A stretch of DNA of 64,000 bases from Dehalococcoidia bacterium (GTDB taxonomy: Bacteria > Chloroflexota > Dehalococcoidia > Lucifugimonadales > GCA-2712585). Shown here piece after piece: positions 3,279 through 31,402 of this stretch. The stretch spans positions 314,492 through 378,491 of the forward strand of contig CBDBNU010000003.1 in assembly GCA_965207845.1 (NCBI GenBank), written 5' to 3'. The notes under the pieces are model-generated. The model was not told the origin of the DNA and searched no databases. It worked only from the letters and a program-made list of their open reading frames with translations. How positions within the stretch are numbered: position 1 is the stretch's first letter; the number at the start of each line of letters is the position of its first letter. A program made the position numbers and the translations under genes.

Positions 3279-4706
3279 TTAAGCATCAGTACAGACCAAG
3301 CCAAGACTAATCCAAGCGTGCATTGCGGTTGCTGAGGCCCTATCTACTTCAGAGATTCCCGCACCTTGCACTATGCATGTCCCTGCCTCTGATTCATTCC
3401 AGTGCGTGTCCACCAACAACTCTACCAGGTCGGCGTCCATCTCCAAGAATGGGGAGTCGGCATCGTCCTTATTGACACATTCCAAACCCATCTCCCAGTG
3501 TGCTAATGCTATGAAGGGGTTTTCAACATCACTGTATCGGCCAATTTCGAATCCCATCTTGCGGTGGACGTCGTCAGGATGCAAGGCTCCAAACTCACGA
3601 TAAGTGGGTACCATGGTTACTGGCCTACAATAGAGCAAATTGAAGTGATTGGTACCCACATACAGAACTGCTTCCACTAGCTGGGCCTTGGCCTTCTCCC
3701 TCTCCTCTGCAATCTCCGCCGGAATAGCTCTGCAGTCGGAGAAGTTCTGGGTAACCCAATATGTCTCAGACGCGAACCCAAATTCATCGGTTATCTGGAC
3801 ATGCACACCCACCCCAATCCTGCGAGCATCAGGATCAAGGATGTTAGTCCTGTGACCAAGGCTGTCCATCCAGTTCGCGACCAGGGCTTCCGCAACTTTC
3901 TCAGAAGTGTTGTGAAAGCCGCTGACGGTAGTGGTGGTAACGCTGCCGCTCGTCGTGTGAGTCCATTCCCAAACTCGTGGCATCATGTTGATATTCTCGG
4001 ATAGCCCATACGTGTAGCTACCATCTTCCCGATAGTTCCTGCAGGTATAGTTCGCAGCCAATGCCCTGTCAGTAGGACCTTGACCATCGATCTCATGCTC
4101 GAATATTCCTGTAGTCGCCATGTTTAGGCTGTGCCCTAGTGCAATCTCACTAATGGAGGGGTCAACAAGTAGAGCAGGGAGTCCTCGTCGCTGTCGTCTT
4201 TCATTTGTAAGCTGGATTACCAAGTGCGCAATTTCTGCTGTATCCAACTCGCCTCCTCCTACATCCTTCAATACTACTGGAGTCGGAGAGGGTGTCGGTG
4301 TTGGTGTGCTAGTTGGCATAGGGGGGAGGGTCGGAACCGGAGGAATTGTTGGTGCAGGGGTTGGGGTGGGTGTCGCCACGGGAGTAGGAGCAGGAGCACG
4401 GCTAGGTGAAGGTAGGGGTTGGGGCGTAGCAGCTGCAGTCTGAGTAGGCTTGGTAGTTGCCGTTGGAGTAGATGTTCTTGTGGGAGTTGGGGTGGTCGTC
4501 AGTGCAGGTACTTCTGTGGCTTCAATCGTAGCAGTTGTTGTCGAGGCTGGTGTTGGAGGTGGCTTAGAAGTCGGTTCTGGAGTTCTGACCACAGTAACTA
4601 CTTGAGGAGCCGGTTCGGACGACGGGCCCTGAAGGACAAAGACAGCTACAACTCCTCCGATGGTCAATACAACTACGCTTAACAGAACTACAATTGGCCA
4701 ACTCAT
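3279..4706 (-). CDS. membrane-anchored protein with Pro/Thr-rich linker, CAP/SCP/PR1-like domain and an uncharacterised C-terminal domain
   Basis: N-terminal TM helix (WPIVVLLSVVVLTIGGVVAVFVL), a roughly 130-aa PT-rich linker, and CAP-like motifs (ERRQRRGLPALLVD...GHSLNM...WMDSLGHRTNILDPDARRIGVGV). G+C is visibly lower than the flanks. Confidence 0.8.
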   Translation of the reverse strand: MSWPIVVLLSVVVLTIGGVVAVFVLQGPSSEPAPQVVTVVRTPEPTSKPPPTPASTTTATIEATEVPALTTTPTPTRTSTPTATTKPTQTAAATPQPLPSPSRAPAPTPVATPTPTPAPTIPPVPTLPPMPTSTPTPTPSPTPVVLKDVGGGELDTAEIAHLVIQLTNERRQRRGLPALLVDPSISEIALGHSLNMATTGIFEHEIDGQGPTDRALAANYTCRNYREDGSYTYGLSENINMMPRVWEWTHTTSGSVTTTTVSGFHNTSEKVAEALVANWMDSLGHRTNILDPDARRIGVGVHVQITDEFGFASETYWVTQNFSDCRAIPAEIAEEREKAKAQLVEAVLYVGTNHFNLLYCRPVTMVPTYREFGALHPDDVHRKMGFEIGRYSDVENPFIALAHWEMGLECVNKDDADSPFLEMDADLVELLVDTHWNESEAGTCIVQGAGISEVDRASATAMHAWISLGLVCTDA

Positions 4707-15548: not shown

Positions 15549-16439
15549 TTAGGGACGGACGCCAGTGAGCTTGGCGAGCTTGAGGGCGTTGAAGACGGCG
15601 ATGGCGACGTACCACTTGACGCGGACGCGGGTGGCGTCCTTGGTCTCGAGGCTGCCGACGCGCTCCACCTGGAGGCCACCGGGGGAGGTGAGGCCTGCGA
15701 CGGCGCCTTCGCCCCACTGGAGGGCGTAGATAGTGGAGCAGTCGCTCTTGTTGCCGACGGTCCTGACGTCGCTCACGTAGTCGCTGACGCCGACGGGGAT
15801 GCCGTCGTAGTAGTCGGTCATCATGCCGAACTGGTCCCTGTCGGCGACGACGACGCCGCTGCCGGCGGCGCGGCCGAGGGCGGAGAGCTTGCGGCGGGAG
15901 CGGCGGCTCATGATGAGCATGTCGGGCTTGCCGCCGCGGACCTTGTCGATCATTTCGTCCAGCTTGTCGAGGGTCAGGGCGCCGCCGTTGTCGCCCATTG
16001 CGACGGTCTGGGTGTCGGCGGTCAGCTTGTCGATACCGTTGAAAGCCTTGGAGTCGGCGGCGCTGTCGCCGTCGATGAAGGTGGTGTCGAACTGCTGCTG
16101 GGTGGCCTTGGACTTGAGGGCGACGACTGTTGCCTCCAGGTCCTGAAGGTTGGAGCGGGTAGCCTTGACGAAGTTGTCCACGTCGGCGTCGCCGCCGAGG
16201 ATCTTCAGGTTGGCGGTGACCTGGGTGAAAGTGGGTGTGGACTCGTTCCAGGTGTCGCCGGGTTCGTAGAAGGAGACCGAGGGAAGGGCCTTTTCCTGGT
16301 TGTAGGTAAGGCCGTTGCCGACCACCTCGATGAAGGGGATGGACTGGAGGACGGGGCTGTCCTTGACGACGGTCTCGATGACGCCGGTTAGGAGCATGTC
16401 CTGGGAGAGTTTTGCGGATTCCGTTAGGGTTAGAGCCAT
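15549..16439 (-). CDS. phage major capsid protein (HK97-fold family, no delta domain)
   Basis: 296 aa. The overall pattern matches phage major capsid families (LTYNQE...ANLKILGGDADVDNF...DMLIMSRRSRRKL...IYALQWGEGAVAGL...VRVKWYVAIAV). GGAGG RBS 7 nt upstream. Confidence 0.85.
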   Translation of the reverse strand: MALTLTESAKLSQDMLLTGVIETVVKDSPVLQSIPFIEVVGNGLTYNQEKALPSVSFYEPGDTWNESTPTFTQVTANLKILGGDADVDNFVKATRSNLQDLEATVVALKSKATQQQFDTTFIDGDSAADSKAFNGIDKLTADTQTVAMGDNGGALTLDKLDEMIDKVRGGKPDMLIMSRRSRRKLSALGRAAGSGVVVADRDQFGMMTDYYDGIPVGVSDYVSDVRTVGNKSDCSTIYALQWGEGAVAGLTSPGGLQVERVGSLETKDATRVRVKWYVAIAVFNALKLAKLTGVRP

Positions 16440-16596: not shown

Positions 16597-17253
16597 ATGC
16601 TTGTTCCGTCAGATCCCAAGATATATCACATTGTCCATGTGGACCGACTAGCGTCAATTGTCGCCGACGGTCATTTGTGGGCAGATTCGGAAGTTCGAGA
16701 GCGTGGGATTGGGGGAACGAACATTGGAATGACCAACATCAAGCAGTACAGGCTACGTAGACGCATAAGGAGCCACGAAGACCTGAGAGTTGGTGACTGC
16801 GTACCATTCTACTTCTGCCCGCGCTCCGTTATGCTCTACGTCATCTATAGAAGAGATCATCCTGAGTTGCAGTATCGGGGAGGTCAAGGCCCTATCGTCC
16901 ACCTAGAAGCGAACATGCACGAAGCGATTGACTGGGCCGACTCCACAGATCGACGTTGGGCATTCACCTCCTCAAATGCTGGCTCAGGGTACTTCCGGGA
17001 CTACTCCGACTTACGGCATTTGAACGAGATTAACTGGGATGCAGTTGGAGCTGATAGATGGTCTGGAGTAGACGTCGACGTTTCCATTAAAGAGAGCAAG
17101 CAAGCGGAATTCCTGATGGAGAAGTCTTTCCCGTGGCACTTAGTTTCCACGATTGGCATCCGTTCACGCAGGATATATCCTAGCGTCCAGCAAGCTCTAA
17201 CCGGAGGTCGGCACAGGCCGAAAGTGGAAATCAAGCCGGGTTGGTATTATTGA
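16597..17253 (+). CDS. darT: DarT, ssDNA thymidine ADP-ribosyltransferase toxin (DUF4433)
   Basis: Strong resemblance to characterised DarT: IYHIVHVD, VPFYFCPRSVMLYVIY, the catalytic-Glu motif KQAEFLM, and the C-terminal PGWYY. Confidence 0.9.
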   Translation: MLVPSDPKIYHIVHVDRLASIVADGHLWADSEVRERGIGGTNIGMTNIKQYRLRRRIRSHEDLRVGDCVPFYFCPRSVMLYVIYRRDHPELQYRGGQGPIVHLEANMHEAIDWADSTDRRWAFTSSNAGSGYFRDYSDLRHLNEINWDAVGADRWSGVDVDVSIKESKQAEFLMEKSFPWHLVSTIGIRSRRIYPSVQQALTGGRHRPKVEIKPGWYY

Positions 17254-17267
17254 CCGGAGGTGGCGGC

Positions 17268-18329
17268 ATGATTGAGGAGAAGAAGGGTGATCTGTTTCAG
17301 GAAGACGTAGAAGCGCTCGTGAACAGCGTGAACTGTGTGGGGGTGATGGGACGGGGAATTGCACTTCAGTTCAAGAAGGCTTTTCCCGGGAATTTCAAGG
17401 CATACGCCCAGGCGTGTAAGCGAGGCGAGGTACAACCGGGCCGCATGTTTGTCTACGACTTGGGGCAGATGACAAATCCTCGCTACATCATCAATTTCCC
17501 AACCAAACGCCACTGGCGGGCCAAGAGCCGCATTGAAGATGTAGAGGCTGGCTTGGAGGCATTGGTTACCGAGATCAGGGAGCGTGATATTCGTTCCATT
17601 GCCATACCGCCGCTGGGCACGAATTTGGGTGGGCTGGGATGGGAGGACGTCAGGCCAAGGATCAAGGAGGCCCTAAGTGAAGTCGAGAACCTGGAGGTAA
17701 GACTTTTCATGCCGGGGGCCGGACCAGCAGACGATCGCCCTAACCCGTCAACCAAGTCGCCCAACATGTCACGGGGGCGTGCTGCCCTGATGTGCCTTAT
17801 GGACCTATACGAGAGGGCGCTGCTTGATCCTTTCGTTACCCTTTTGGAAATCCACAAGCTCATGTACTTCATGCAGGAAGCAGGCGAAAACCTGCGTCTG
17901 AAGTTTCAGAAGGGCTACTACGGGCCCTATGCTGAGAATTTGAGGCATGTGCTGAAGGTGATGGAGGGGCACTATATTTCAGGATACCTGGGGGTAGGCG
18001 ACGCCCCGGGAGATGAGTTGAAGCTAGTGCCCGGCGCTGTAAATGAGGCAAAGACCGTTCTGGAGAGGTTTCCCAGGACGAAGGAAAGGCTGGAGCGTGT
18101 TTCTGGGCTGGTGGAGGGCTTCGAGTCTTCCTTCGGGTTGGAGCTATTGGCCACGGTGCACTGGGTGTTTGCCGAAGACCCGTCCAGGAGCGACGAAGAG
18201 GTTGTCTTCTACACCCATCGTTGGAATCAGCGGAAGAAGCAGTTTTCGGAGCGTCAGATACGGCTGGCTCTCCAGACGTTGAGGGACAAGGGATGGATTA
18301 AATCGGCGGATTCGGTCACGCAAGTGTGA
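17268..18329 (+). CDS. darG: DarG, macrodomain antitoxin with C-terminal DarT-binding domain
   Basis: Macrodomain N-terminus (GDLFQEDVEALVNSVNCVGVMGRGIALQFKKAFP). The ATG at 17268 is preceded by GGAGG and lies just after the darT stop. Confidence 0.9.
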   Translation: MIEEKKGDLFQEDVEALVNSVNCVGVMGRGIALQFKKAFPGNFKAYAQACKRGEVQPGRMFVYDLGQMTNPRYIINFPTKRHWRAKSRIEDVEAGLEALVTEIRERDIRSIAIPPLGTNLGGLGWEDVRPRIKEALSEVENLEVRLFMPGAGPADDRPNPSTKSPNMSRGRAALMCLMDLYERALLDPFVTLLEIHKLMYFMQEAGENLRLKFQKGYYGPYAENLRHVLKVMEGHYISGYLGVGDAPGDELKLVPGAVNEAKTVLERFPRTKERLERVSGLVEGFESSFGLELLATVHWVFAEDPSRSDEEVVFYTHRWNQRKKQFSERQIRLALQTLRDKGWIKSADSVTQV

Positions 18330-20633: not shown

Positions 20634-21812
20634 TTGCGAGCAGCAGACAGGATGAACAACCTGGGTACGGAATCGGCATTCGAGGTGTTGGCTAAGGCCA
20701 AGGCCCTGGAGGCCAAGGGACACGACGTGGTGCACCTGGAGATAGGGGAGCCGGACTTCGACACGCCGGACCACATCGTGGACGCGGGCATTCAGGCGCT
20801 GCGGCGGGGGTACACTCACTACGGGCCTTCGGCGGGACTGCCGGAACTGCAGGAGGCCATCGCCGACAACGTGAACGCGACGCGCGGGCTGGATGTGGAA
20901 CCGGGGCAGGTGGTTGTGACGCCTGGCGGCAAGCCGATAATGTTCTTCACCATCATGGCGCTGGTGCAGCCGGGCGACGAGGTGCTGTATCCGAACCCGA
21001 GCTTCCCCATCTACGAGTCGATGATCAACTTCTGCGGGGCCGAGCCGGTGCCCGTGCGGCTGCTTCCCAACGAGGGAAACCGGCTGGACCTGGACGACCT
21101 GGAACGGAAGCTCTCCGACCGCACCAAGCTGGTGATTTTGAACTCGCCGCAGAATCCGACGGGGTCCGTTATGGGGCGGGAGGACGTGGAGCTGCTGGGC
21201 CGGCTGCTGGGTGAGCGGGACGACGTGACGATTCTCTCCGACGAGATCTATAAGGACATAATCTACAAGGGCGCGCACCACAGCATTGCGTCGCTGCCGG
21301 GGATGGGAGAGAGGACGGTCATCCTGGACGGCTTTTCAAAGTCCTACGCGATGACGGGCTGGCGGCTGGGGTACGGGGTGTTCCCCCACTGGCTGACGGA
21401 GCACGTGGTGAAGCTGGCGGCGAATAGCGTTTCCTGCGCCGCGAGCTTCACGCAAATGGCGGCGATACGCGCGCTGGAGGGACCGCAGGAGCCGGTGATG
21501 AATATGGTGGATGAATTTCGGAAGAGGCGCGATTTGATCGTCGAGGGGCTGAACAGCATCCCCGGCATCGAGTGTCCGGTGCCGGACGGGGCCTTCTACG
21601 TGTTCCCCAGCATTGCGGGGACGGGTTTCGAAAGCGGCGATTTTCAGGAGCGGGTGCTGAACGAGGCGGGGGTGGCGCTGCTGAATGGCGGCGCGTTCGG
21701 CGGGTACGGGGAGGGGTTTGTGCGCCTGTCCTACGCCAACTCTGCGGAGAACATCGCGAAGGCGTTGGAGCGGCTGGCGGGCTTTGTGAGGGAGAACGGC
21801 CGCAGGGGTTAG
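20634..21812 (+). CDS. class I/II pyridoxal-phosphate aminotransferase (aspartate aminotransferase-like)
   Basis: The motif SKSYAMTGWRLGY contains the PLP lysine. Start is uncertain: TTG 20634 after GGAGGAG, ATG 20652, or track start 20610. Confidence 0.9.
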   Translation: MRAADRMNNLGTESAFEVLAKAKALEAKGHDVVHLEIGEPDFDTPDHIVDAGIQALRRGYTHYGPSAGLPELQEAIADNVNATRGLDVEPGQVVVTPGGKPIMFFTIMALVQPGDEVLYPNPSFPIYESMINFCGAEPVPVRLLPNEGNRLDLDDLERKLSDRTKLVILNSPQNPTGSVMGREDVELLGRLLGERDDVTILSDEIYKDIIYKGAHHSIASLPGMGERTVILDGFSKSYAMTGWRLGYGVFPHWLTEHVVKLAANSVSCAASFTQMAAIRALEGPQEPVMNMVDEFRKRRDLIVEGLNSIPGIECPVPDGAFYVFPSIAGTGFESGDFQERVLNEAGVALLNGGAFGGYGEGFVRLSYANSAENIAKALERLAGFVRENGRRG

Positions 21813-22180
21813 GGTTTTTCGCGATTCTCGTCGGCTAAGACTTTCTCTAGCTGTGGGATGAGGGCGGGGATGTCGTTTTGGACGATATCCCAGATAATGT
21901 CGTCGTCAACGCCGGAATAGAAGTGGGTGACCCGGTTGCGAGTACCAATGATTTCGCCCCAAGCGATATGAGGATAAGACAGCCTGATGGAGTCTGGTAT
22001 TTTGGCCGCCGCCTCCCCTATCATTTCGATTGTCTTTAGGGTGGCTCTATAGACACGCAGATCGTTGACAAACTCGCTCTGGTCCAGCCCGCGGGTAAGG
22101 CACAAGACCTCTTTGGCGAACTGGAGCATGTCTCTCACATAGATTGTCCAGAGGAATCTTGTTTCGCTAGACTCAGACAT
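21809..22180 (-). CDS. hepT: HepT (DUF86/HEPN) toxin
   Basis: Intact RX4HXY motif (RNRVTHFY). Overlaps the upstream MNT-containing gene by 8 nt, as in canonical mntA-hepT operons. Confidence 0.85.
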   Translation of the reverse strand: MSESSETRFLWTIYVRDMLQFAKEVLCLTRGLDQSEFVNDLRVYRATLKTIEMIGEAAAKIPDSIRLSYPHIAWGEIIGTRNRVTHFYSGVDDDIIWDIVQNDIPALIPQLEKVLADENREKP

Positions 22181-22871
22181 TTATGACGTCTCTTTCCACG
22201 AATGGAAGAACTTCGGAACGCAGTGACTTTTGGGTGGCGAGGTCAACGGTCCGGCCCAGTTGCTCTTCCAGGTAGAAAAGTGTGCCGAAGTAGCCTTTCG
22301 ACGTGGCCGGACCGTTGAACTTCACCATTACGTCCACGTCGCTGTCTTCGGCGGCCTGATCGCGGGCGAAGGAGCCGAAGAGGGCGAGTTCGGTTACGCC
22401 GAAACGTTCTTCCAAGATAGGTTTGTGCTCTCTTAGGGTGTTGAGAATTTGTTGTCGGCTTATTGACGCCTTTCCGCCGGACGGACTACGTTGAGGTATC
22501 AGTAGTTGAAGTTCCTCGGAGTTTGCCAAGAGCTCATGGAGTTGAGGGGGGAGGGTTGATAGGTCGGTCTGAATGATCTCCCAGATTCCCTTATCGTTCG
22601 CCCTGGAAAGGGGGTAGACGCTCCGGTCTTGCGTTTCTATGAACTTGCTCCATTGGATGTGCGGATAGGCTTCCCTAATGGGAACGGGAACCTGGGAAGC
22701 GGCACCGCCGATGCGTTCGATGTTCCATAACGTGGCGTGATAGATTCTACCGTCGTCCAGAAACGACTTCTGGTCCAAGCCATGTGTGTATGTCAAGGCA
22801 GTTTGCGCGTACCGGATCATATCCTGCACATAGATGGTCCAGAGGCGGGCTTGAGTTGGGGAGTCTGACAT
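22173..22871 (-). CDS. fusion protein: degenerate HepT-like (DUF86) domain plus MNT nucleotidyltransferase antitoxin domain
   Basis: The N-terminal ~125 aa align with HepT 21809-22180, but the RX4HXY positions read QDRSVYPL. The C-terminal ~100 aa carry the MNT motif GSFARDQAAEDSDVDVMV. No stop or usable start separates the two halves. Confidence 0.8.
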   Translation of the reverse strand: MSDSPTQARLWTIYVQDMIRYAQTALTYTHGLDQKSFLDDGRIYHATLWNIERIGGAASQVPVPIREAYPHIQWSKFIETQDRSVYPLSRANDKGIWEIIQTDLSTLPPQLHELLANSEELQLLIPQRSPSGGKASISRQQILNTLREHKPILEERFGVTELALFGSFARDQAAEDSDVDVMVKFNGPATSKGYFGTLFYLEEQLGRTVDLATQKSLRSEVLPFVERDVINV

Positions 22872-24791: not shown

Positions 24792-26117
24792 TTAGTTGTT
24801 CATGCTTTCTTCAGCAGACGGATCCGACTCGCGCCGGATGGTCTGCTGTTCCGAATCGGGGTCCGTGACGCCCAGGCGCTCCATGGCGCGGCGTCGGCTG
24901 TGGATGCCCGCCTCGACGAGGCTGCGTTCCTGCTGCACCAGCCTAGTGCGGTCCTGGGGAAGCAGCGGCCCCCAATCGACGCGGATCCAGAGGTCGCCGA
25001 AGTCGTGACCGGCGAACCGTTCCAGCATCATCAGGGCCATCTCGGCCCGACGGCGGTAGACCCAGGAGCGGATCAGCCGCTTGCGCTGAACACGTTGCAG
25101 CAGGGGGTGCATCTCCATCTCAAGGGCAACTCCGGAGAGACGCTGGGGGTTGTGTCCGAAGCTGATGCGGGGCGCTTCCGAAAGGTCGTGAAGGGCATCG
25201 TAGACCAGCTGTATATAGTCGGCGTGGAGCTTGGCGCCGCCGCCCTGGAGCAGGTCCAGCAGGTAGGCGCGGGCCTGGTCGGGAAGCTCCCAGACGGCCC
25301 CCGGCTCCACGGCGATGTCGCGGGCCTCTTCCACGCCCTCCAGCACGGCGATGGGGTTGCCGGAAAGTTCCAGTATGGTGGAAAGCTGGGACAGGGCGCG
25401 GTTCAGTTCCCGCGCCGGTTCCATGAGGATGGGAACGTCGGAGACGCCCCAGAAACGCTTGGGGTCCCGAAGGTTGGGGAATATGACGAAGGGGATGAAG
25501 CCGTAGGGGTTGGGGCGTTCATCGACGAGGGCGTCGCCGACCCATAGCTGAAATTCCGACCTGGTCCAGCCCTCGACCACGGTGGCCATGCCGTCTTGGT
25601 CGCCCGTCTTGACGTTGTAGAGGTTGTCGGCGTCCTCGGCTGAGATGCGGTAGCGGCTGGCGACGCGCCAGACCCGGGATGGATCGTCGCCGATCCACCA
25701 GGCGAAGATGCCCTGAACGTCGGGGGCGGTCACGCGGACGCGGCGCTCTTCCGGGTCCCAGATAACCTTGAAGCAGCCGTCGCCGAGCACGGCGGCGTCG
25801 AGCTCCGTGGCCAGGTCAAGCTCCTCCAGGCGGTTGTCCTGGTAGACGCGGCGCACGGCGATTTCGGCCTGGCGGGCGCGGGCCATGCCTTCGTCGGTGG
25901 CGTCCACCGGCTCCATGGCGAGAATGCCGCCGGAGGCCATGTAGGACGTGACCTTCTCCAGCAGCGCCCGCACGTAGTTGAAGGTGAGCCGCCGTTCGCC
26001 GCGACGCTGGCGGCCCTGCCACTGGCGTCCGGCGAAGAAGCTCATGTTCTCAGCGTAGGCTTGCAGCCGCCGGGAATCTCTTCGCGCCACCAGCTGGGGC
26101 AGATTTACTTCTTCCAT
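24792..26117 (-). CDS. phage portal protein (SPP1 gp6-like family)
   Basis: 441 aa. N-terminal FFAGRQW motif, with overall length and pattern typical of portals. GAGGAGG RBS 6-7 nt upstream of the ATG at 26117. Confidence 0.85.
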   Translation of the reverse strand: MEEVNLPQLVARRDSRRLQAYAENMSFFAGRQWQGRQRRGERRLTFNYVRALLEKVTSYMASGGILAMEPVDATDEGMARARQAEIAVRRVYQDNRLEELDLATELDAAVLGDGCFKVIWDPEERRVRVTAPDVQGIFAWWIGDDPSRVWRVASRYRISAEDADNLYNVKTGDQDGMATVVEGWTRSEFQLWVGDALVDERPNPYGFIPFVIFPNLRDPKRFWGVSDVPILMEPARELNRALSQLSTILELSGNPIAVLEGVEEARDIAVEPGAVWELPDQARAYLLDLLQGGGAKLHADYIQLVYDALHDLSEAPRISFGHNPQRLSGVALEMEMHPLLQRVQRKRLIRSWVYRRRAEMALMMLERFAGHDFGDLWIRVDWGPLLPQDRTRLVQQERSLVEAGIHSRRRAMERLGVTDPDSEQQTIRRESDPSAEESMNN

Positions 26118-27432: not shown

Positions 27433-28419
27433 ATGCCAGCCAATTTAACCCCCCAGTACAAGGAAGCGGAGCAGCGATACCGCCAGTCGAGGACGCTGCC
27501 GGCGAAGGTGGCCGCGCTGCAGGAGATGATGGCCGTCATCCCCAAGCACAAGGGGACGGACCATCTGCGGGCGGACCTGCGGGCCCGGATGTCGCGTCAC
27601 ATGGAGGAGCTGGAGAAGCCCAAGAGCACCAGCGGCGGGCCGCAGCCCTTCAGCATCCGCAAGGAGGGCGCGGGGCAGGTGCTGATTGTCGGCCTGCCCA
27701 ACGCCGGAAAGTCGGAGATCCTGAACGCCCTGACGCGCGCGCCCGCCAAGGTCGGCGACTACCCCTTCACGACGCAGATCCCGATGGTGGGGATGCTGCC
27801 GTACGAGAACATCAAGTTTCAGCTGGTGGACACGCCCGCCCTCAACGCATTGGACGTGCAGACGCGGCTGTTCGGCCTGCTGCGCAACACGGACCTGCTG
27901 CTGGTGACGCTTAACCTGGAGGCGGACCCCTTCGAGGAGATGCGGCAGATCAACGTGCTGCTCCACGAGTGGGGCTATTCGCTGCTGGAGTCTGGGGAGG
28001 CTATCGACCTGGAGGGTTCCAGGGTTCAGAAGCTTTCGATCATCCTGGCCAACAAGGCCGACGCTGAGGGCGCAGAGGAGAAGTTCGCCCGACTGGAGCG
28101 AGAATACGGCGGGAAATTCACCCTCATCAAGCTGTCGTGCCTGGACGGGACAGGACTGGACGACGTGGGGCGGGAGGTGTTCAGTCACCTGAAGAAGGTG
28201 CGGGTGTATACGAAAAGCCCCAGCGGCGAGCCGGACTTCGACAAGCCTATAGTAATCGCCAGGGGCAGCACTGCCTCGGACGCGGCCCAGCGGCTGCACA
28301 AGGAGTGGCGGGAGAAGCTGAAGTACGCGCTGCTATGGGGTTCGGCGAAGTTCGACGGTCAGCGGGTGGGCCGCGACTACGTCCTCGCCGACGGAGACGT
28401 GATAGAGCTTCACGGGTAG
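27433..28419 (+). CDS. Obg-family GTPase of the DRG type with C-terminal TGS domain
   Basis: G1 GLPNAGKSEIL, G2 YPFTT, G3 DTPAL. DRG-like N-terminal helical region (IPKHKGTDHLRADLRARM) and a TGS-like C-terminus ending GDVIELH. Confidence 0.85.
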   Translation: MPANLTPQYKEAEQRYRQSRTLPAKVAALQEMMAVIPKHKGTDHLRADLRARMSRHMEELEKPKSTSGGPQPFSIRKEGAGQVLIVGLPNAGKSEILNALTRAPAKVGDYPFTTQIPMVGMLPYENIKFQLVDTPALNALDVQTRLFGLLRNTDLLLVTLNLEADPFEEMRQINVLLHEWGYSLLESGEAIDLEGSRVQKLSIILANKADAEGAEEKFARLEREYGGKFTLIKLSCLDGTGLDDVGREVFSHLKKVRVYTKSPSGEPDFDKPIVIARGSTASDAAQRLHKEWREKLKYALLWGSAKFDGQRVGRDYVLADGDVIELHG

Positions 28420-28422
28420 GGA

Positions 28423-29241
28423 CTACCATCCGTCGGCAGGGTTGATTTCGCGGAGCATTACGGGCGTGCCGGGTCCGATGGCGCACCGGGAGGCCATCCC
28501 TTCGTTGACCTCGATGGCGTACTTGGCGGGTGCGGTGGAGGCGTAGATGGGCAGTGACCCTCCTTCAGCATCGTGCTCCGGCCGCATGGTCTGGACGTCT
28601 ATGACGTTCAGGTCTTCGTCGACGAAGAGGATGTCCAGGGGTATGAGGGTATTCCTCATCCAGAAGCTCAACTCTCGCTCGCGCTGGAAGACGAACAGCA
28701 TCCCGCGGTCCTCGCCCAGCGATTCCCTGCCCATTAGCCCTTGCGCCCGTTCCTCCGACGTGTCGGCGACTTCAAGGAAGAAGTCGCAGGAGGCGATGGT
28801 GGCTGCGGCTTGGATTTCGGGGCCGAGGGAGGGCGTAGGCGATGGGGTTGGGACGCGAGCGGCTGTCGGTGTCGGGGAGGGTGTGGGAGATGGGGTCGGT
28901 GTAGGTGAGGGTGGAGGCGTAGTGGTGATTGTGGGCGTGGGCGTCGGGGTGGTTACTGACGGGGATGGAGTGGATTCTGCTGCTGCTGCGGGGGTGGTTG
29001 TTGGGGAGGGAGCGACGGATGGTGTGGCGGTCGGCGTGGAGGTGATGCCGGGTGTGGCGGTTAGCGTTGGCGCGGGAGTGGGTGTAGCCGTAGTTGCTGT
29101 TTGCGTCGCCTCCCCGTCGTCGCCGGCGCAGGCGGCGAGAAGGAAGAGCGCGGCCAGACACGCGAGGGTGATTCGCGTCAGGGCAAAGGAGACGGCATGA
29201 ATGGACCCATTACCCAAACACCTCTTTGTGCCGGAGTACAC
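28423..29241 (-). CDS. DUF192-domain lipoprotein with Pro/Thr-rich linker
   Basis: Lipobox LFLLAAC, a roughly 110-aa PT linker, and the DUF192 core ([18 protein letters not shown]...[16 protein letters not shown]). Confidence 0.8.
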
Positions 29242-29300
29242 TTTTGTCTAATTCTTAGAACTTGACATATATTGTTCAACTATTGTAGCCTGTAATACAG

Positions 29301-29329
29301 ATGGAGGACATCAAAAAGATGTCCTCCAT
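29301..29329. repeat. perfect 12-bp inverted repeat (hairpin) immediately upstream of the tRNA
   Basis: atggaggacatc-aaaaa-gatgtcctccat. No flanking T-run on either strand, so this is not a canonical terminator. Confidence 0.7.
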
Positions 29330-29336
29330 CTCACGC

Positions 29337-29422
29337 GGTCGGGTGCCTGAGTGGCCGAAAGTGCCTGACTCCAAATCAGGATTGCGTAGCGCGCATCGTG
29401 GGTTCGAATCCCACCCCGACCG
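29337..29422 (+). tRNA. class II (long variable arm) tRNA with anticodon read as CCA; identity uncertain (Trp-like anticodon and G73 on a Ser/Leu/Tyr-type body)
   Basis: Hand fold: acceptor GGTCGGG/CCCGACC, anticodon arm CCTGA-CTCCAAA-TCAGG, 17-nt variable arm ATTGCGTAGCGCGCATC, T-arm GTGGG-TTCGAAT-CCCAC, G73, no CCA. The D-stem is weak (CCT/AGT, C10-U25 mismatch). Confidence 0.6.
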
Positions 29423-29676
29423 CAAAATAATGTCCTTGTCTATTCACCAGAGATTCTTATGTGCCTTATAATTTACACTGCGGTAGTCTAGTCTGTCAAC
29501 AACAACAAAAAGTTTGAGATAAATTTAATATTTTCTTTGATTAATTACAAAATTATGAACTAAATCGCCATGTAAGGACAACTTTAGCATCCAAATGAGC
29601 GACAATTACTCACATATCTTGAGCAAATGAGAGCCCTCATAAGAGTTTTTCTCTCGTAATTTAGTTTCGCCGCATA

Positions 29677-29985
29677 TTGACACAGGAAATGGCAATGTTT
29701 GAAGAAGATCACTGTCAAATTGAACAAATCCCCATGGCCCAGGCTCGAGGTATGTTAGGGCGCCTACCGGAAAAGCTTTCTAAGGAGAATCGGGCAGTTG
29801 CCTTGACTAAACGCGGTAAGCCTGTGTTGGTCGTTATACCTTGGGAACTGTATGAATCTATCGCTGAGACAATGGAGATTCTCGAAGATGCCGAGATGAT
29901 GGATGGCGTTCGTAAGGGCATCCAGGATATGCGGGAAGGCAACCTGATCTCCCACGATGAAGTGGTGGCGCGGCTGGGGGACTAG
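29677..29985 (+). CDS. Phd/YefM-family antitoxin, apparently orphan
   Basis: The core RAVALTKRGKPVLVVIPWELYESIAETMEILED is typical of Phd/YefM. The exact start is unclear (TTG 29677 or later ATGs). No toxin ORF follows. Confidence 0.7.
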   Translation: MTQEMAMFEEDHCQIEQIPMAQARGMLGRLPEKLSKENRAVALTKRGKPVLVVIPWELYESIAETMEILEDAEMMDGVRKGIQDMREGNLISHDEVVARLGD

Positions 29986-29992
29986 GCCGGGG

Positions 29993-31402
29993 TCAGGCCA
30001 GGGCGAGGGAGCGCTGGCGCATTCGGGGGCGGGCGCGGCCCCGGGCCACCCGCGGCAGGTACTTGCCCGCTTCCACCAGGAGCGCGAGGCTGTTCAGGTA
30101 GTCGTCGTGGCCGTCGGATTCTTCCACGTAGAAGTTCATCGTCTTATCCATTCGGTACTGGACCTGCGCCGACGTCACCTGCCGCCAGAACTCGGCCCAC
30201 TCCTGTGAGCCGTCCCGGGCGTACATCTTCAGCCGGCCTGAATTCACCGCCGACATCAGGTCGTAGCCCAGCCGCGACTTGCTCTGGGTGCTGTATCGCA
30301 GCGAAGTTACGGCGCTGGAGCCGAGGGCTTTCGACAACACGCTTGCCACGCCTTCGCCCATGCCGGTGGCGTCGACGGCCACGCGGCGACAGCGCCACAC
30401 GTTCTTGAGGATGTCCACCAGCCGCGGGTAGAGGGCGTGGTGGGGGACACCCTGCCACTCGTAGTGCTCCACCACACGGACGGCGGGGTCTCGATTGAAG
30501 TTATCTATTGCTGAGAAGTCCAGCTCGCCGATTGTCAGCACGGTGGAGTCGGGACGCTGCCCGGACGCGGTCAAGTCGCCAGCGCCGGTCAAGCCTCCGC
30601 CCACGTCCAGCCCGGCCACGTAGACGCCGTTCCTTGTCGGCGTGCGCAGGCGGGAGTGACTTCCCTGAAGCTGGCCGGTGTCGCCGGCGGTGAAGAGGCC
30701 CCCCTGGCCGGATACGGGCAGCAGCAGGTACTGGGTGCGGAAGAGGGGGTGGTTCTCCCCCATGCGCTGCCGCTCCGCCTCCACGTAGCTGCGGTAGGGC
30801 GGGCTGTGGGCCGCCACTTCTTCCCACGGCACTGAGAAGTGGCGCTTGACGCCGTCCTTCCGCTCCAGTTCCCGGTTGGACTCGGCGACCTCCTCCAGCA
30901 GGGAGCGGCCGTCCCAGGGGGTGCCGTAGAGGACGGTGGTGACGTTTGTGGAAGCGCCCATGGGACGGAACTCCTTGTGGTACTTGTCCGATTCGATGTC
31001 CTGGGCTTCGTCCACCTCCAGCAGGATGTGGGCCGTGTTGCCCACCACGTTGGCGTTTGGTTCGGCGCTGAGAAAGAGCTGACGGGCTTTGCCAAGTACC
31101 ACGGCGTTACCAGCTTCCGTGTACCAGTGACCGCGATATCCGGCATCGTCCAGCCGCTCCTTCAGCCGGTTCATGCTGATGAGGGCCTGGGGCAAGAAAG
31201 TGGGTGCGGCCTTGATCATGTTGCCGCCGTCTGCATAATTCATGGTCAGGAGAAGCGTCCCCAATTGGGCGGAAAGCTCGTTCTTTCCACCCTGTCGGGC
31301 AATTTCAACGGTGAAGGTCAGGCCTTTGCCGCGCGCCACGCTCTCCATCACGGCGCGGCCTATCTCGAGTTGGTAGGGACGAAAAGGATGTCTATTCTGC
31401 AT
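29993..31402 (-). CDS. terL: phage terminase large subunit
   Basis: ATPase Walker A-like ARQGGKNE and Walker B LLEVDEAQD, with a C-terminal nuclease-like half. AAGGAGG RBS. Confidence 0.9.
   Translation of the reverse strand: MQNRHPFRPYQLEIGRAVMESVARGKGLTFTVEIARQGGKNELSAQLGTLLLTMNYADGGNMIKAAPTFLPQALISMNRLKERLDDAGYRGHWYTEAGNAVVLGKARQLFLSAEPNANVVGNTAHILLEVDEAQDIESDKYHKEFRPMGASTNVTTVLYGTPWDGRSLLEEVAESNRELERKDGVKRHFSVPWEEVAAHSPPYRSYVEAERQRMGENHPLFRTQYLLLPVSGQGGLFTAGDTGQLQGSHSRLRTPTRNGVYVAGLDVGGGLTGAGDLTASGQRPDSTVLTIGELDFSAIDNFNRDPAVRVVEHYEWQGVPHHALYPRLVDILKNVWRCRRVAVDATGMGEGVASVLSKALGSSAVTSLRYSTQSKSRLGYDLMSAVNSGRLKMYARDGSQEWAEFWRQVTSAQVQYRMDKTMNFYVEESDGHDDYLNSLALLVEAGKYLPRVARGRARPRMRQRSLALA

What the first reader, a model, noticed from the sequence alone, without database searches (positions are those of the whole stretch)
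29301..29676. Class-II tRNA with a Trp (CCA) anticodon loop, preceded by a perfect hairpin and followed by an AT-rich tract
The tRNA at 29337-29422 has a 17-nt variable arm with its own stem, a hallmark of Ser, Leu and Tyr tRNAs in bacteria. Its anticodon loop is CTCCAAA, identical to standard tRNA-Trp loops, and its discriminator is G73. In E. coli, G73 plus the CCA anticodon are the tRNA-Trp identity elements, whereas SerRS recognises the long variable arm. Identity is therefore ambiguous.

The D-stem is weak (C10-U25). The anticodon differs from Ser-CGA, Sec/opal-suppressor TCA and Leu-CAA by one base. The acceptor pairing can extend to 9 bp (GCGGTCGGG/CCCGACCGC).

The gene sits between phage-like modules. 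It is preceded by a 12-bp perfect hairpin (29301-29329) and followed by about 250 nt of AT-rich DNA and an orphan antitoxin. It could be a mobile-element-borne recoding or mistranslating tRNA, a decayed tRNA-Ser, or an integration-site relic.
Basis: partly seen in the sequence, partly recalled or inferred. Interest (0 to 1): 0.6.

Follow-up and report, generated by a model that had tools for sequence, protein, structure and literature searches.

The report
Serine-type tRNA with a tryptophan anticodon
This is a real, well-folded tRNA gene built like a serine tRNA but carrying a tryptophan anticodon; it sits on a small DNA cassette shared by related bacteria, whose copies carry a glycine anticodon instead, so it is an accessory "wrong-anticodon" tRNA or a decaying one, not the cell's normal tryptophan tRNA.

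Summary
Window 29337-29422(+) is a class-II tRNA with anticodon CCA, G73, a 17-nt variable arm and a C10·U25 mismatch. A perfect hairpin (14 bp, not 12) precedes it; 266 nt of 34% GC DNA and a toxin-less Phd/YefM gene follow.

The body is seryl-type: G73, G1-C72, G2-C71, C11-G24, a Ser-like D-loop and symmetric variable-arm flanks. With the anticodon wild-carded, 16 of 17 matching tRNAs in species-representative genomes are tRNA-Ser (CGA/UGA), and none is CCA.

The gene lies in a ~585-bp low-GC cassette: promoter-like site, hairpin, tRNA, AT-rich spacer and the 5' end of phd. Three genomes share this cassette at 93-96% identity, although their flanking genes are only ~80% identical. Sister genomes hold a parE toxin gene, or no such insert, in that slot.

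The other two copies have anticodon CCC, G25 and U44. The window's CCA is therefore a recent C36A change, accompanied by D-stem-breaking G25U and by U44A. In the window lineage the tRNA changes as fast as its non-coding flanks.

Best reading: an accessory seryl-type missense tRNA, comparable to allo-tRNAs or tRNAProX, possibly decaying here. It is not a genuine tRNATrp. Function is untested.

The parts
29160..29790 (+). Low-GC cassette of about 585 bp shared by three genomes. It runs from the 5' end of the DUF192 gene to about codon 30 of phd. Both edges are approximate.
   Evidence: Sliding identity to L148 and L156 is 93-100% inside the cassette and about 78-82% (or unalignable) outside it. 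Three-way alignment A2.
29244..29273 (+). Sigma-70-like promoter match (TTGTCT-18-TATATT). A perfect TTGACA hexamer lies at 29263-29268. Both are upstream of the tRNA.
   Evidence: Consensus scan, (9 of 12 matches). The region is nearly invariant across the three copies. Promoter function is inferred, not shown.
29299..29331 (+). Perfect 14-bp inverted repeat with a 5-nt loop, ending 5 nt upstream of the tRNA.
   Evidence: I17. No T-run follows on either strand. The inner 13 bp of each arm are identical in all three copies and the outermost pair breaks in L156, while the loop is AAAAA in the window and L148 but TTCTT in L156. It folds as an independent hairpin in the precursor.
29337..29422 (+). 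Class-II, seryl-type tRNA with a 7/5 cloverleaf. Anticodon CCA is at 29371-29373 and G73 at 29422. Window-specific bases are U25 (29362), A36 (29373) and A44 (29381).
   Evidence: fold and score; nearest relatives are tRNA-Ser; Ser-type discriminator, 1-72 pair and variable-arm geometry; allelic differences.
29423..29688 (+). AT-rich spacer and probable promoter/5' UTR of phd. It contains a block (29434-29509) identical in the window and L148, with a single base changed in L156, holding facing promoter-like hexamers.
   Evidence: Promoter-like TTCACC-18-TATAAT on the + strand (29443-29472) and TTGACA-18-TAAATT on the - strand (29499-29470), both 10 of 12. No convincing ORF, no Rfam family, and no fold beyond shuffles (z 0.61 and -0.22).
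29689..29985 (+). Phd/YefM-family antitoxin gene without a partner toxin. Its first ~30 codons belong to the cassette.
   Evidence: Pfam PF02604, E 6.7e-10. Homologues P0121-P0134. Identity to L148 and L156 drops inside the gene at about 29745-29790. In L149 the same 3' part (94.7% identical) is preceded by a ParE toxin gene.
28423..29241 (-). DUF192 protein gene, with a hydrophobic N-terminus and a Thr/Pro-rich linker, on the left flank of the slot.
   Evidence: Pfam PF02643, E 3.7e-31. Present in L144, L150 and L156, truncated in L148, and present at least as its 5' (N-terminal) part in L149.
27433..28419 (+). Conserved GTPase with a TGS domain; left anchor of the variable slot.
   Evidence: Pfam. 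Orthologues at 77-91% identity were used to recover the syntenic loci.
29993..31402 (-). Terminase-like gene; right anchor of the variable slot.
   Evidence: Pfam Terminase_6C, E 2.6e-6. Syntenic in every related locus that extends far enough.

Best explanation
The feature is an accessory seryl-type (class II, 7/5) tRNA gene carried on a small low-GC cassette. The cassette recombines into a cargo slot between a GTPase gene and a terminase-like gene in a group of related, probably Chloroflexota, genomes.

The cassette's ancestral anticodon was CCC. The window copy became CCA through one substitution (C36A) and also acquired G25U, which breaks the 10-25 pair, and U44A.

SerRS ignores the anticodon and reads the long variable arm, G73 and the acceptor and D-stem pairs. 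The expected product is therefore Ser-tRNA. It would insert Ser at GGG in the sister copies and at UGG in the window copy. In the window copy only, CCA plus G73 could also let TrpRS charge it, giving a dual identity.

The gene is not the cell's tRNATrp and does not recode UGG. In the window lineage it evolves at the same rate as the surrounding spacer, so it is at best weakly selected and may be on the way to inactivation.

Shown: the fold, the Ser-type features, the cassette and its mosaic borders, the allelic anticodons and the normal use of UGG. Inferred: expression, charging by SerRS or TrpRS, and any effect on translation.
For: - tRNA calls and fold. The L148 copy scores 59.0 bits with no mismatched pair.
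- Ser type: with the anticodon wild-carded, 16 of 17 genome hits are tRNA-Ser CGA/UGA and one is Tyr.
- The best masked-anticodon neighbours are tRNA-Ser, up to 83% identical.
- The best annotated hits in phage genomes are tRNA-Ser.
- In 57 reference tRNA-Ser, G73 occurs in 46, G1-C72 in 54, and the most common variable-arm flank pattern is symmetric (1,1 in 36 of 57). The window tRNA has G73, G1-C72 and flanks of 2+2. Leu and Tyr have A73 and asymmetric flanks.
- Cassette: 93-96% identity over about 29160-29790, against about 80% in the flanking genes.
- Alternative contents of the slot.
- Anticodon CCC, G25 and U44 in both L148 and L156.
- UGG means Trp, and codon use is normal.
- Precedent: Ser-identity allo-tRNAs carry 35 different, mostly non-Ser, anticodons and lie near toxin-antitoxin systems (PMC5389517). 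tRNAProX is another precedent (PMC11415595).
Against: - There is no expression or charging data.
- Only three copies are known.
- Window-lineage changes are 3 of 86 in the tRNA against 16 of 363 in other non-coding cassette DNA (Fisher p = 1.0). All lineages together give 4 of 86 against 38 of 363 (p = 0.10). Purifying selection on the tRNA is therefore not demonstrated.
- The window copy has a broken D-stem pair.
- A constitutively expressed Ser-tRNA(CCA) or Ser-tRNA(CCC) would be harmful in a genome that uses UGG and GGG normally.
- The Ser-like nearest neighbours were partly pre-selected by the search pattern (D-loop plus anticodon stem).
- The native tRNA-Ser, tRNA-Trp and tRNA-Gly genes of this genome could not be retrieved for comparison.
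Confidence: 0.5

Rival explanations
1. It is a non-functional relic: a tRNA-Ser-derived gene hitch-hiking on the cassette, no longer used, with anticodon and D-stem drifting neutrally.
For: - The window lineage shows 3 of 86 changes in the tRNA against 16 of 363 in the spacer, which is the same rate.
- One of these changes breaks the 10-25 pair.
- The anticodon differs between near-identical copies.
- Most related genomes lack the gene altogether.
- No close relative was found in 185,579 representative genomes or in the viral contigs, both scanned with the anticodon wild-carded. The metagenome scan required CCA and found none either.
Against: - All other stems and every conserved tertiary position are intact in all three copies. 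L148 has no mismatch at all.
- The L156 lineage has 1 change of 86 in the tRNA, in the variable-arm loop, against 19 of 363 in the spacer.
- The promoter-like region and the hairpin stem upstream are conserved.
- The Rfam score of 56-59 bits is far above the threshold of 29.
Confidence: 0.3
2. The tRNA has a non-decoding role within the cassette. It could be a processing or stability element of a tRNA-phd co-transcript. It could be a decoy or substrate for a tRNA-targeting toxin. Or it could itself be the harmful partner that replaced ParE upstream of Phd, with the palindrome acting as an operator.
For: - The tRNA plus AT-rich tract occupies exactly the position of the parE toxin gene in the closest genome, L149.
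- The cassette carries the 5' (N-terminal) end of phd together with the upstream palindrome. From general knowledge of Phd/YefM antitoxins, not tested here, that N-terminal part is the DNA-binding region.
- The hairpin stem is conserved while its loop is replaced.
- Allo-tRNAs are also found next to toxin-antitoxin systems, and two variants killed E. coli (PMC5389517).
Against: - The argument is purely positional.
- Phd alone, without any toxin, is common in this slot (L144-146, L150, L155), so no partner is needed.
- No binding or toxicity data exist.
- The palindrome lacks the TGTAC-type motif seen upstream of the other phd alleles (read).
Confidence: 0.1
3. It is a genuine class-II tRNATrp, charged by TrpRS and reading UGG as Trp, like the long-arm tRNA(CCA) genes common in phages.
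For: - CCA plus G73 are the main bacterial TrpRS determinants (established knowledge; review PMC9976931 listed).
- At least 104 phage contigs carry class-II tRNA(CCA) with G73, usually as the only Trp-anticodon tRNA in the fetched part of the contig. A long arm therefore seems compatible with Trp decoding.
Against: - The two sister copies of the same tRNA have CCC, not CCA.
- The window tRNA has G1-C72 and Ser-type arm geometry. The phage group has A1-U72 or G1·U72 in 51 of 65 and Tyr-like geometry.
- The nearest phage CCA tRNAs are at most 75% identical, against 83% for tRNA-Ser.
- Most relatives lack the gene, so it cannot be the essential tRNATrp.
Confidence: 0.07
4. It is a relic of a tRNA-borne integration site (attB/attL) left by a mobile element.
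For: It lies in a variable cargo slot next to low-GC DNA, and tRNA genes are common integration targets (general knowledge).
Against: - No duplicate of the tRNA 3' end exists in the 64-kb window.
- No integrase or transposase domain was found in the neighbouring ORFs.
- Genomes lacking the cassette also lack the tRNA, so the tRNA is cargo and not a target.
Confidence: 0.03

Closest known systems
Bacterial tRNA-Ser (CGA/UGA isoacceptors)
   Same: Class-II 7/5 cloverleaf, G73, G1-C72, G2-C71, C11-G24, D-loop GAGUGGYCGAA, symmetric variable-arm flanks and a canonical T-loop. Up to 83% identity with the anticodon masked.
   Different: The anticodon is CCA (window) or CCC (sisters) instead of a Ser anticodon. 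Position 10 is C rather than G, and the window copy has a C10·U25 mismatch. The gene is accessory, cassette-borne and absent from most relatives.
Allo-tRNAs (Mukai et al. 2017, PMC5389517)
   Same: Long variable arm plus G73 (Ser identity) combined with non-Ser anticodons that vary between copies. Found next to toxin-antitoxin genes. Some appear inactive or degenerate.
   Different: Allo-tRNAs are defined by an 8/4 or 9/3 acceptor/T branch and a Sec-like D-arm. This tRNA is a plain 7/5 with a normal Ser D-arm. Allo-tRNAs were reported from Clostridia, Proteobacteria and Acidobacteria, not from this lineage.
tRNAProX / ProRSx of Streptomyces and Kitasatospora (reviewed in PMC11415595)
   Same: Natural bacterial tRNAs that combine the body of one isotype with the anticodon of another. 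They cause missense insertion when expressed in E. coli.
   Different: They have Pro identity, A34 and A33 oddities and a dedicated synthetase paralogue encoded alongside. No synthetase is encoded near this tRNA.
Nematode nev-tRNAs (Hamashima et al. 2016, cited in PMC5389517)
   Same: From my own knowledge: class-II tRNAs carrying Gly (CCC) or Ile (UAU) anticodons. This is the same anticodon as the sister copies here.
   Different: They are eukaryotic, Leu-type and multi-copy.
Phage-borne class-II tRNA(CCA) found here (L001-L120)
   Same: Long variable arm, CCA anticodon and G73.
   Different: The phage group has A1-U72 or G1·U72, Tyr-like arm flanks and a U31-A39 anticodon-stem end. It is usually the only Trp-anticodon tRNA in the fetched part of the contig. 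The window tRNA has G1-C72 and Ser-like flanks, and its sister copies are CCC.
Anticodon-variant tRNA-Ser mistranslators (human tRNA-Ser-AGA G35A, engineered yeast tRNASer; PMC12993449 and PMC6827378, listed)
   Same: A single anticodon substitution in a tRNA-Ser body redirects Ser to another codon, because SerRS does not read the anticodon.
   Different: Those are eukaryotic variants of essential multi-copy genes. This is a single accessory bacterial gene on an exchanged cassette.

Membership tests
tRNA (Rfam RF00005) | Full cloverleaf scoring above the curated gathering score | tested here: met
   56.2 bits against 29, model positions 1-71. ARAGORN also calls it.
Class II (long-arm) tRNA | Variable region longer than 10 nt that forms its own stem-loop | tested here: met
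   17 nt, with a 5-bp stem and a 3-nt loop.
tRNA-Ser (bacterial SerRS identity set) | G73 discriminator | tested here: met
   G at 29422. 46 of 57 reference tRNA-Ser have G73, while Leu and Tyr have A73.
tRNA-Ser (bacterial SerRS identity set) | Long variable arm with Ser-type geometry (equal numbers of unpaired bases on both sides of the arm) | tested here: met
   The window has flanks of 2+2. The reference Ser mode is 1+1, Leu 1+2, Tyr 1+3 or 0+2.
tRNA-Ser (bacterial SerRS identity set) | Acceptor and D-stem pairs G1-C72, G2-C71 and C11-G24 | tested here: met
   Read from the sequence. That these are identity elements is from the established E. coli literature, not tested here.
tRNA-Ser (bacterial SerRS identity set) | Anticodon for a Ser codon | tested here: not met
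   CCA in the window and CCC in L148 and L156. The anticodon is not a SerRS determinant, so this defeats the label 'tRNA-Ser isoacceptor' but not serylation.
tRNA-Ser (bacterial SerRS identity set) | Aminoacylation with serine | not testable with these tools
   Requires a biochemical assay.
Bacterial tRNA-Trp | CCA anticodon and G73 | tested here: met
Bacterial tRNA-Trp | Class-I body (short variable loop) and an A1-U72 type first pair | tested here: not met
   17-nt arm and G1-C72.
Bacterial tRNA-Trp | Anticodon conserved among orthologous copies | tested here: not met
   Two of the three copies have CCC.
Allo-tRNA | 12-bp acceptor branch split 8/4 or 9/3, with a Sec-like long D-stem and tetraloop | tested here: not met
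   7-bp acceptor, 5-bp T-stem and an 11-nt Ser-type D-loop. The two extra flanking pairs would give 9/5, not 9/3.
tRNA-Sec / opal suppressor | UCA anticodon and a 13-bp 8/5 branch | tested here: not met
tRNA pseudogene | Loss of structure or no selection relative to neutral DNA | tested here: inconclusive
   One broken pair in the window copy only. The substitution rate equals the spacer rate in the window lineage, and is lower, though not significantly, overall.

The most novel reading that the evidence does not exclude
The cassette is a toxin-antitoxin-like module in which a seryl-type missense tRNA has taken the place of the ParE toxin. Transcription from the conserved promoter would be gated by the palindrome and by the cassette-specific N-terminus of Phd, and would release a tRNA that poisons translation by inserting Ser at GGG or UGG.

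A variant of this reading concerns the window copy alone. Its three private changes all fall in the anticodon or in the hinge between the D-stem and the anticodon stem: C36A, G25U and U44A. That is the region altered in the Hirsh suppressor of tRNATrp. The copy might therefore be a CCA tRNA adapted to misread UGA.
Probability: 0.07. Interest if true: 0.85.

Novelty: new variant of a known kind. Interest (0 to 1): 0.5.

Why it matters
Natural tRNAs that pair the body of one amino acid with the anticodon of another are rare in bacteria. The known examples are allo-tRNAs and tRNAProX, and their biological roles are unknown.

This would be a canonical 7/5 tRNA-Ser body doing the same thing. Its anticodon can be seen switching (CCC to CCA) between near-identical copies. 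It rides on a ~585-bp module that moves between genomes and replaces a toxin gene beside an antitoxin.

If the tRNA is active, it offers a simple natural system for asking whether regulated mistranslation is ever selected. It would also bear on whether a tRNA can act as the harmful partner of a toxin-antitoxin locus.

If it is inactive, it is a snapshot of how quickly an unselected tRNA-Ser changes its meaning. That matters for automatic annotation, because ARAGORN labels these copies 'tRNA-Trp' and 'tRNA-Gly' from the anticodon alone.

Tried and rejected
- **Exact-product look-ups for the window's own proteins failed**. The source contig of 1.5 Mb could not be opened, and the genome's native tRNA-Trp, tRNA-Gly and tRNA-Ser could not be inspected.
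'Chloroflexota/SAR202-like' rests only on named homologues of ~60% identity and on F420-biosynthesis gene content.
- **A scan for the same anticodon stem with CCA** found only unrelated tRNAs in viral and metagenome collections: L138/L140, a 79-nt phage tRNA, and L139, an AT-rich contig with a poor acceptor stem.
- **The hairpin** is absent from viral contigs. Only distant 2-mismatch half-sites occur elsewhere in the window.
- **The AT-rich tract** has no credible ORF, no Rfam family and no fold beyond shuffles. I rejected the idea that it is a decayed parE: blastn of the window against L149 aligns only the DUF192 5' part and phd/terminase, and nothing in 29159-29763.
- **An allo-tRNA (8/4 or 9/3) or Sec-like fold** was rejected on structure.
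- **Integration-site relic**: no repeat of the tRNA 3' end.
- **UGG recoding** was rejected.
- **Literature searches** for a class-II tRNATrp or a Ser-type CCA/CCC tRNA in bacteria or phages found nothing specific. This is absence of evidence in an open-access library only.
Full report

Yes. ARAGORN reports tRNA-Trp(cca) at 29337-29423. Rfam's tRNA model matches 29337-29422 end to end at 56.2 bits, against a gathering score of 29, and only the 10-25 pair is flagged as non-standard. The minimum-free-energy fold gives acceptor, anticodon, variable and T arms as in the cloverleaf, with a 5-bp variable-arm stem and a 3-nt loop; its D-arm helix (9-11 with 17-19) is not the canonical one, which comes from the Rfam alignment (z = -2.85).

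The loop CUCCAAA, G73 and the two extra potential pairs outside the acceptor stem (G-2/C74 and C-1/G73) can be read. The upstream inverted repeat is perfect and 14 bp long (29299-29312/29318-29331, 5-nt loop), not 12 bp. No T-run follows it on either strand.

Downstream lie 266 nt which, together with the upstream spacer, are 34% GC in a 60.5% GC window. Then comes a Phd/YefM antitoxin gene. The spacer holds no credible toxin ORF.

**2. What kind of tRNA is it?**

The body is seryl-type.

- I scanned one genome for each of 185,579 species with the D-loop and anticodon stem fixed and the anticodon wild-carded. This returned 17 tRNAs: 16 tRNA-Ser (CGA or UGA) and one tRNA-Tyr. None had CCA or CCC.
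- In annotated phage genomes the best annotated hits are tRNA-Ser.
- I derived empirical rules from the same reference set. Ser tRNAs have G73 (46 of 57), G1-C72 (54 of 57) and, most often (1,1 in 36 of 57), symmetric unpaired flanks around the variable-arm stem. Leu tRNAs have A73 and 1+2 flanks. Tyr tRNAs have A73 and 1+3 or 0+2 flanks.
- The window tRNA has G73, G1-C72, G2-C71, C11-G24, an 11-nt Ser-type D-loop and 2+2 flanks.

One caveat applies. The genome hits were pre-selected by the pattern, so they show compatibility with tRNA-Ser rather than a phylogeny.

**3. Genomic setting**

The window is chromosomal. It carries RadA, RuvB, YebC, F420-biosynthesis genes and several low-GC toxin-antitoxin islets. 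The nearest named homologues of the adjacent GTPase are SAR202 (Chloroflexota) proteins at about 60% identity. The organism itself could not be named.

Orthologues of the GTPase at 77-91% identity let me recover the syntenic locus from a dozen contigs. The gene order there is luciferase-like gene, 188-aa gene, portal, enoyl-CoA hydratase, GTPase, variable slot, terminase-like gene, four small genes, HD, HIT, then short-chain dehydrogenase. This order is conserved at about 80% nucleotide identity. The 'phage-like modules' are therefore long-resident genes.

The slot between the GTPase and terminase-like genes carries different cargo in different genomes:

| Cargo | Loci |
|---|---|
| ParE + Phd | L141, L149 |
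| Phd alone, with or without DUF192 | L144, L145, L146, L150, L155 |
| SocA/Panacea-domain gene | L147 |
| Other genes | L142, L143 |
| The tRNA arrangement | window, L148, L156 |

**4. The cassette**

The window, L148 and L156 share 93-96% identity over about 29160-29790. Their flanks are only about 78-82% identical. The left edge lies in the 5' end of the DUF192 gene and the right edge lies about 30 codons into phd.

L149 is 94.7% identical to the window in the 3' part of phd and the start of the terminase gene. It has a parE toxin gene and a different phd 5' end exactly where the window has the tRNA and the AT-rich tract.

The unit is therefore a low-GC mosaic module of about 585 bp: promoter-like site, hairpin, tRNA, spacer and phd 5' end. 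It has been exchanged between genomes that are otherwise at species-or-greater distance. No integrase, transposase or att-like repeat accompanies it.

**5. The key result: the anticodon is not conserved**

The L148 and L156 tRNAs are the same gene. They differ from the window copy at 3 and 4 of 86 positions, but both carry anticodon CCC.

| tRNA position | Window | L148 | L156 |
|---|---|---|---|
| 25 | U | G | G |
| 36 | A | C | C |
| 44 | A | U | U |
| Variable-arm loop base | A | A | C |

By majority rule on the three-taxon tree, the ancestor had CCC, a paired C10-G25 and U44. U44 is also the state in the tRNA-Ser neighbours. The window's 'Trp anticodon' therefore results from a single recent C36A change. 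The weak D-stem is a window-specific G25U change. L148 scores 59.0 bits with no irregular pair.

A body that stays constant while its anticodon moves between codons of different amino acids points to a synthetase that ignores the anticodon. With G73 and this arm, that synthetase is SerRS. GlyRS is unlikely for the CCC copies: they have G73 and G2-C71, whereas from established knowledge the bacterial Gly determinants are U73 and C2-G71. Only the window copy gains the two main TrpRS determinants, CCA and G73, so only there is the identity truly ambiguous.

**6. Is it under selection?**

This is unresolved. Lineage-specific changes in the window are 3 of 86 in the tRNA against 16 of 363 in the other non-coding cassette DNA (Fisher p = 1.0). 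In L156 they are 1 of 86 against 19 of 363 (p = 0.14). All lineages together give 4 of 86 against 38 of 363 (p = 0.10).

The inner 13 bp of each hairpin arm are identical in all three copies (the outermost pair breaks in L156), although the loop is replaced in L156. The promoter-like region and the block 29434-29509 are nearly invariant: the block is identical in the window and L148 and has one base changed in L156.

UGG is used at normal frequency: 1.2% of codons generally and 1.8% in the phage-like genes. The three UGG codons of the GTPase align with Trp in eight homologues of 54-63% identity. There is no recoding, so a highly expressed Ser-tRNA(CCA) would be damaging.

**7. Mechanism proposed**

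- Shown: an intact class-II seryl-type tRNA gene; a mobile mosaic cassette; an allelic anticodon switch; normal use of UGG.
- Inferred: transcription from the upstream promoter-like site through a structured leader, then RNase P and 3' processing with CCA addition (CCA is not encoded). This would be followed by serylation by SerRS and low-level insertion of Ser at GGG (sisters) or UGG (window), with possible competing tryptophanylation in the window copy.
- Given the neutral-like rate and the broken D-stem pair, the window copy may be losing function.
- I put 0.5 on 'accessory seryl-type missense tRNA on an exchanged cassette, weakly selected or decaying'. I put 0.3 on 'already a dead relic', 0.1 on a non-decoding role within the Phd module, 0.07 on a genuine class-II tRNATrp and 0.03 on an integration relic.

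**8. Comparison with known systems**

The closest in behaviour are allo-tRNAs. They have Ser identity elements, carry 35 different and mostly non-Ser anticodons, are frequently found near toxin-antitoxin systems, and some are inactive or toxic (PMC5389517). However, this tRNA fails their defining 8/4 or 9/3 architecture.

tRNAProX (PMC11415595) is another bacterial dual-identity family, but it comes with its own synthetase. The nematode nev-tRNAs share the CCC anticodon on a class-II body; this is recalled from memory and was not checked here.

I therefore file the feature as a new variant of a known kind: natural missense or dual-identity tRNAs. Its function is not demonstrated.

**9. A finding made on the way**

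Of these hits, 104 are real class-II tRNA(CCA) genes. They have G73 but A1-U72 or G1·U72 and Tyr-like arm flanks. They are usually the only Trp-anticodon tRNA in the fetched part of the contig.

The control pattern with CCC gave 28 hits, none of which is a class-II tRNA(CCC). A class-II body with a CCA anticodon is thus common in phages, as an apparently genuine tRNATrp. This is a different lineage from the window tRNA. I found no description of it in the searchable literature.

Noticed in passing
L001-L120 (viral contigs), e.g. L052 5017-5100, L028 3157-3242, L005 11175-11265: At least 104 phage contigs carry class-II (81-92 nt) tRNA genes with anticodon CCA. They have G73, mostly A1-U72 or G1·U72, and Tyr-like variable-arm flanks. 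They are usually the only Trp-anticodon tRNA in the fetched part of the contig. The same arrays hold long-arm tRNAs with Lys, His, Cys, Asn and Met anticodons. Cultured relatives are annotated 'tRNA-Lys' (Caulobacter phage CcrBL9 group) and 'tRNA-Trp' (Brevundimonas phages). I found no paper describing this.
   Followed up: partly
window 15549-16439(-), 24792-26117(-), 29993-31402(-): Capsid-like (GP7/SU10), SPP1-type portal and terminase-like genes are separated by housekeeping genes (PLP enzyme, DAO oxidoreductase, aminotransferase, luciferase-like, enoyl-CoA hydratase, GTPase). For the portal-to-terminase part, the only part the fetched loci cover, this interleaved order is conserved at about 80% nucleotide identity in at least 8 related genomes. 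They look like long-resident or domesticated phage genes rather than a prophage.
   Followed up: partly
window 28420-29992 and the matching slot in L141-L150, L155, L156: The gap between the GTPase and terminase-like genes is a cargo hotspot with at least five alternative contents: ParE+Phd, Phd alone, a SocA/Panacea-domain gene, unrelated genes, or the tRNA cassette. The phd alleles are mosaic, with interchangeable 5' ends.
   Followed up: yes
window 16597-18329(+) and 21809-22871(-): There are low-GC3 defence/toxin-antitoxin islets: DarT with a macro-domain (DarG-like) partner, and a HepT gene next to a HepT-MNT fusion-like ORF.
   Followed up: no
window 29299-29331; L156 2603-2634: The inner 13 bp of each hairpin arm are identical in all three cassette copies and only the outermost pair is lost in L156. 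The 5-nt loop is AAAAA in two copies and TTCTT in L156, as if the loop had been inverted and then mutated. This suggests that the stem or palindrome itself matters.
   Followed up: partly
window 29362, 29373, 29381: The three substitutions private to the window tRNA all fall in the anticodon (C36A) or in the hinge between the D-stem and the anticodon stem (G25U, U44A). This is the region where the Hirsh suppressor mutation lets tRNATrp(CCA) read UGA. This is a post hoc observation from three events and was not tested.
   Followed up: no
window 29434-29509: A 76-nt block inside the AT-rich tract is identical in the window and L148 and differs at one base in L156. It holds facing promoter-like sites: TTCACC-18-TATAAT on the + strand, pointing towards phd, and TTGACA-18-TAAATT on the - strand, pointing antisense into the tRNA.
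   Followed up: no
L139 4785-4872 (metagenome contig AUXO017980788.1): An unrelated AT-rich contig carries another class-II tRNA(CCA) with the same anticodon stem-loop (CCTGACTCCAAATCAGG) but an imperfect acceptor stem.
   Followed up: no
window 3279-4706(-): A CAP (cysteine-rich secretory protein) domain protein with GC3 of 0.49 sits in a genome where GC3 is about 0.8. It is probably foreign DNA next to tRNA-Glu at 2105-2182.
   Followed up: no
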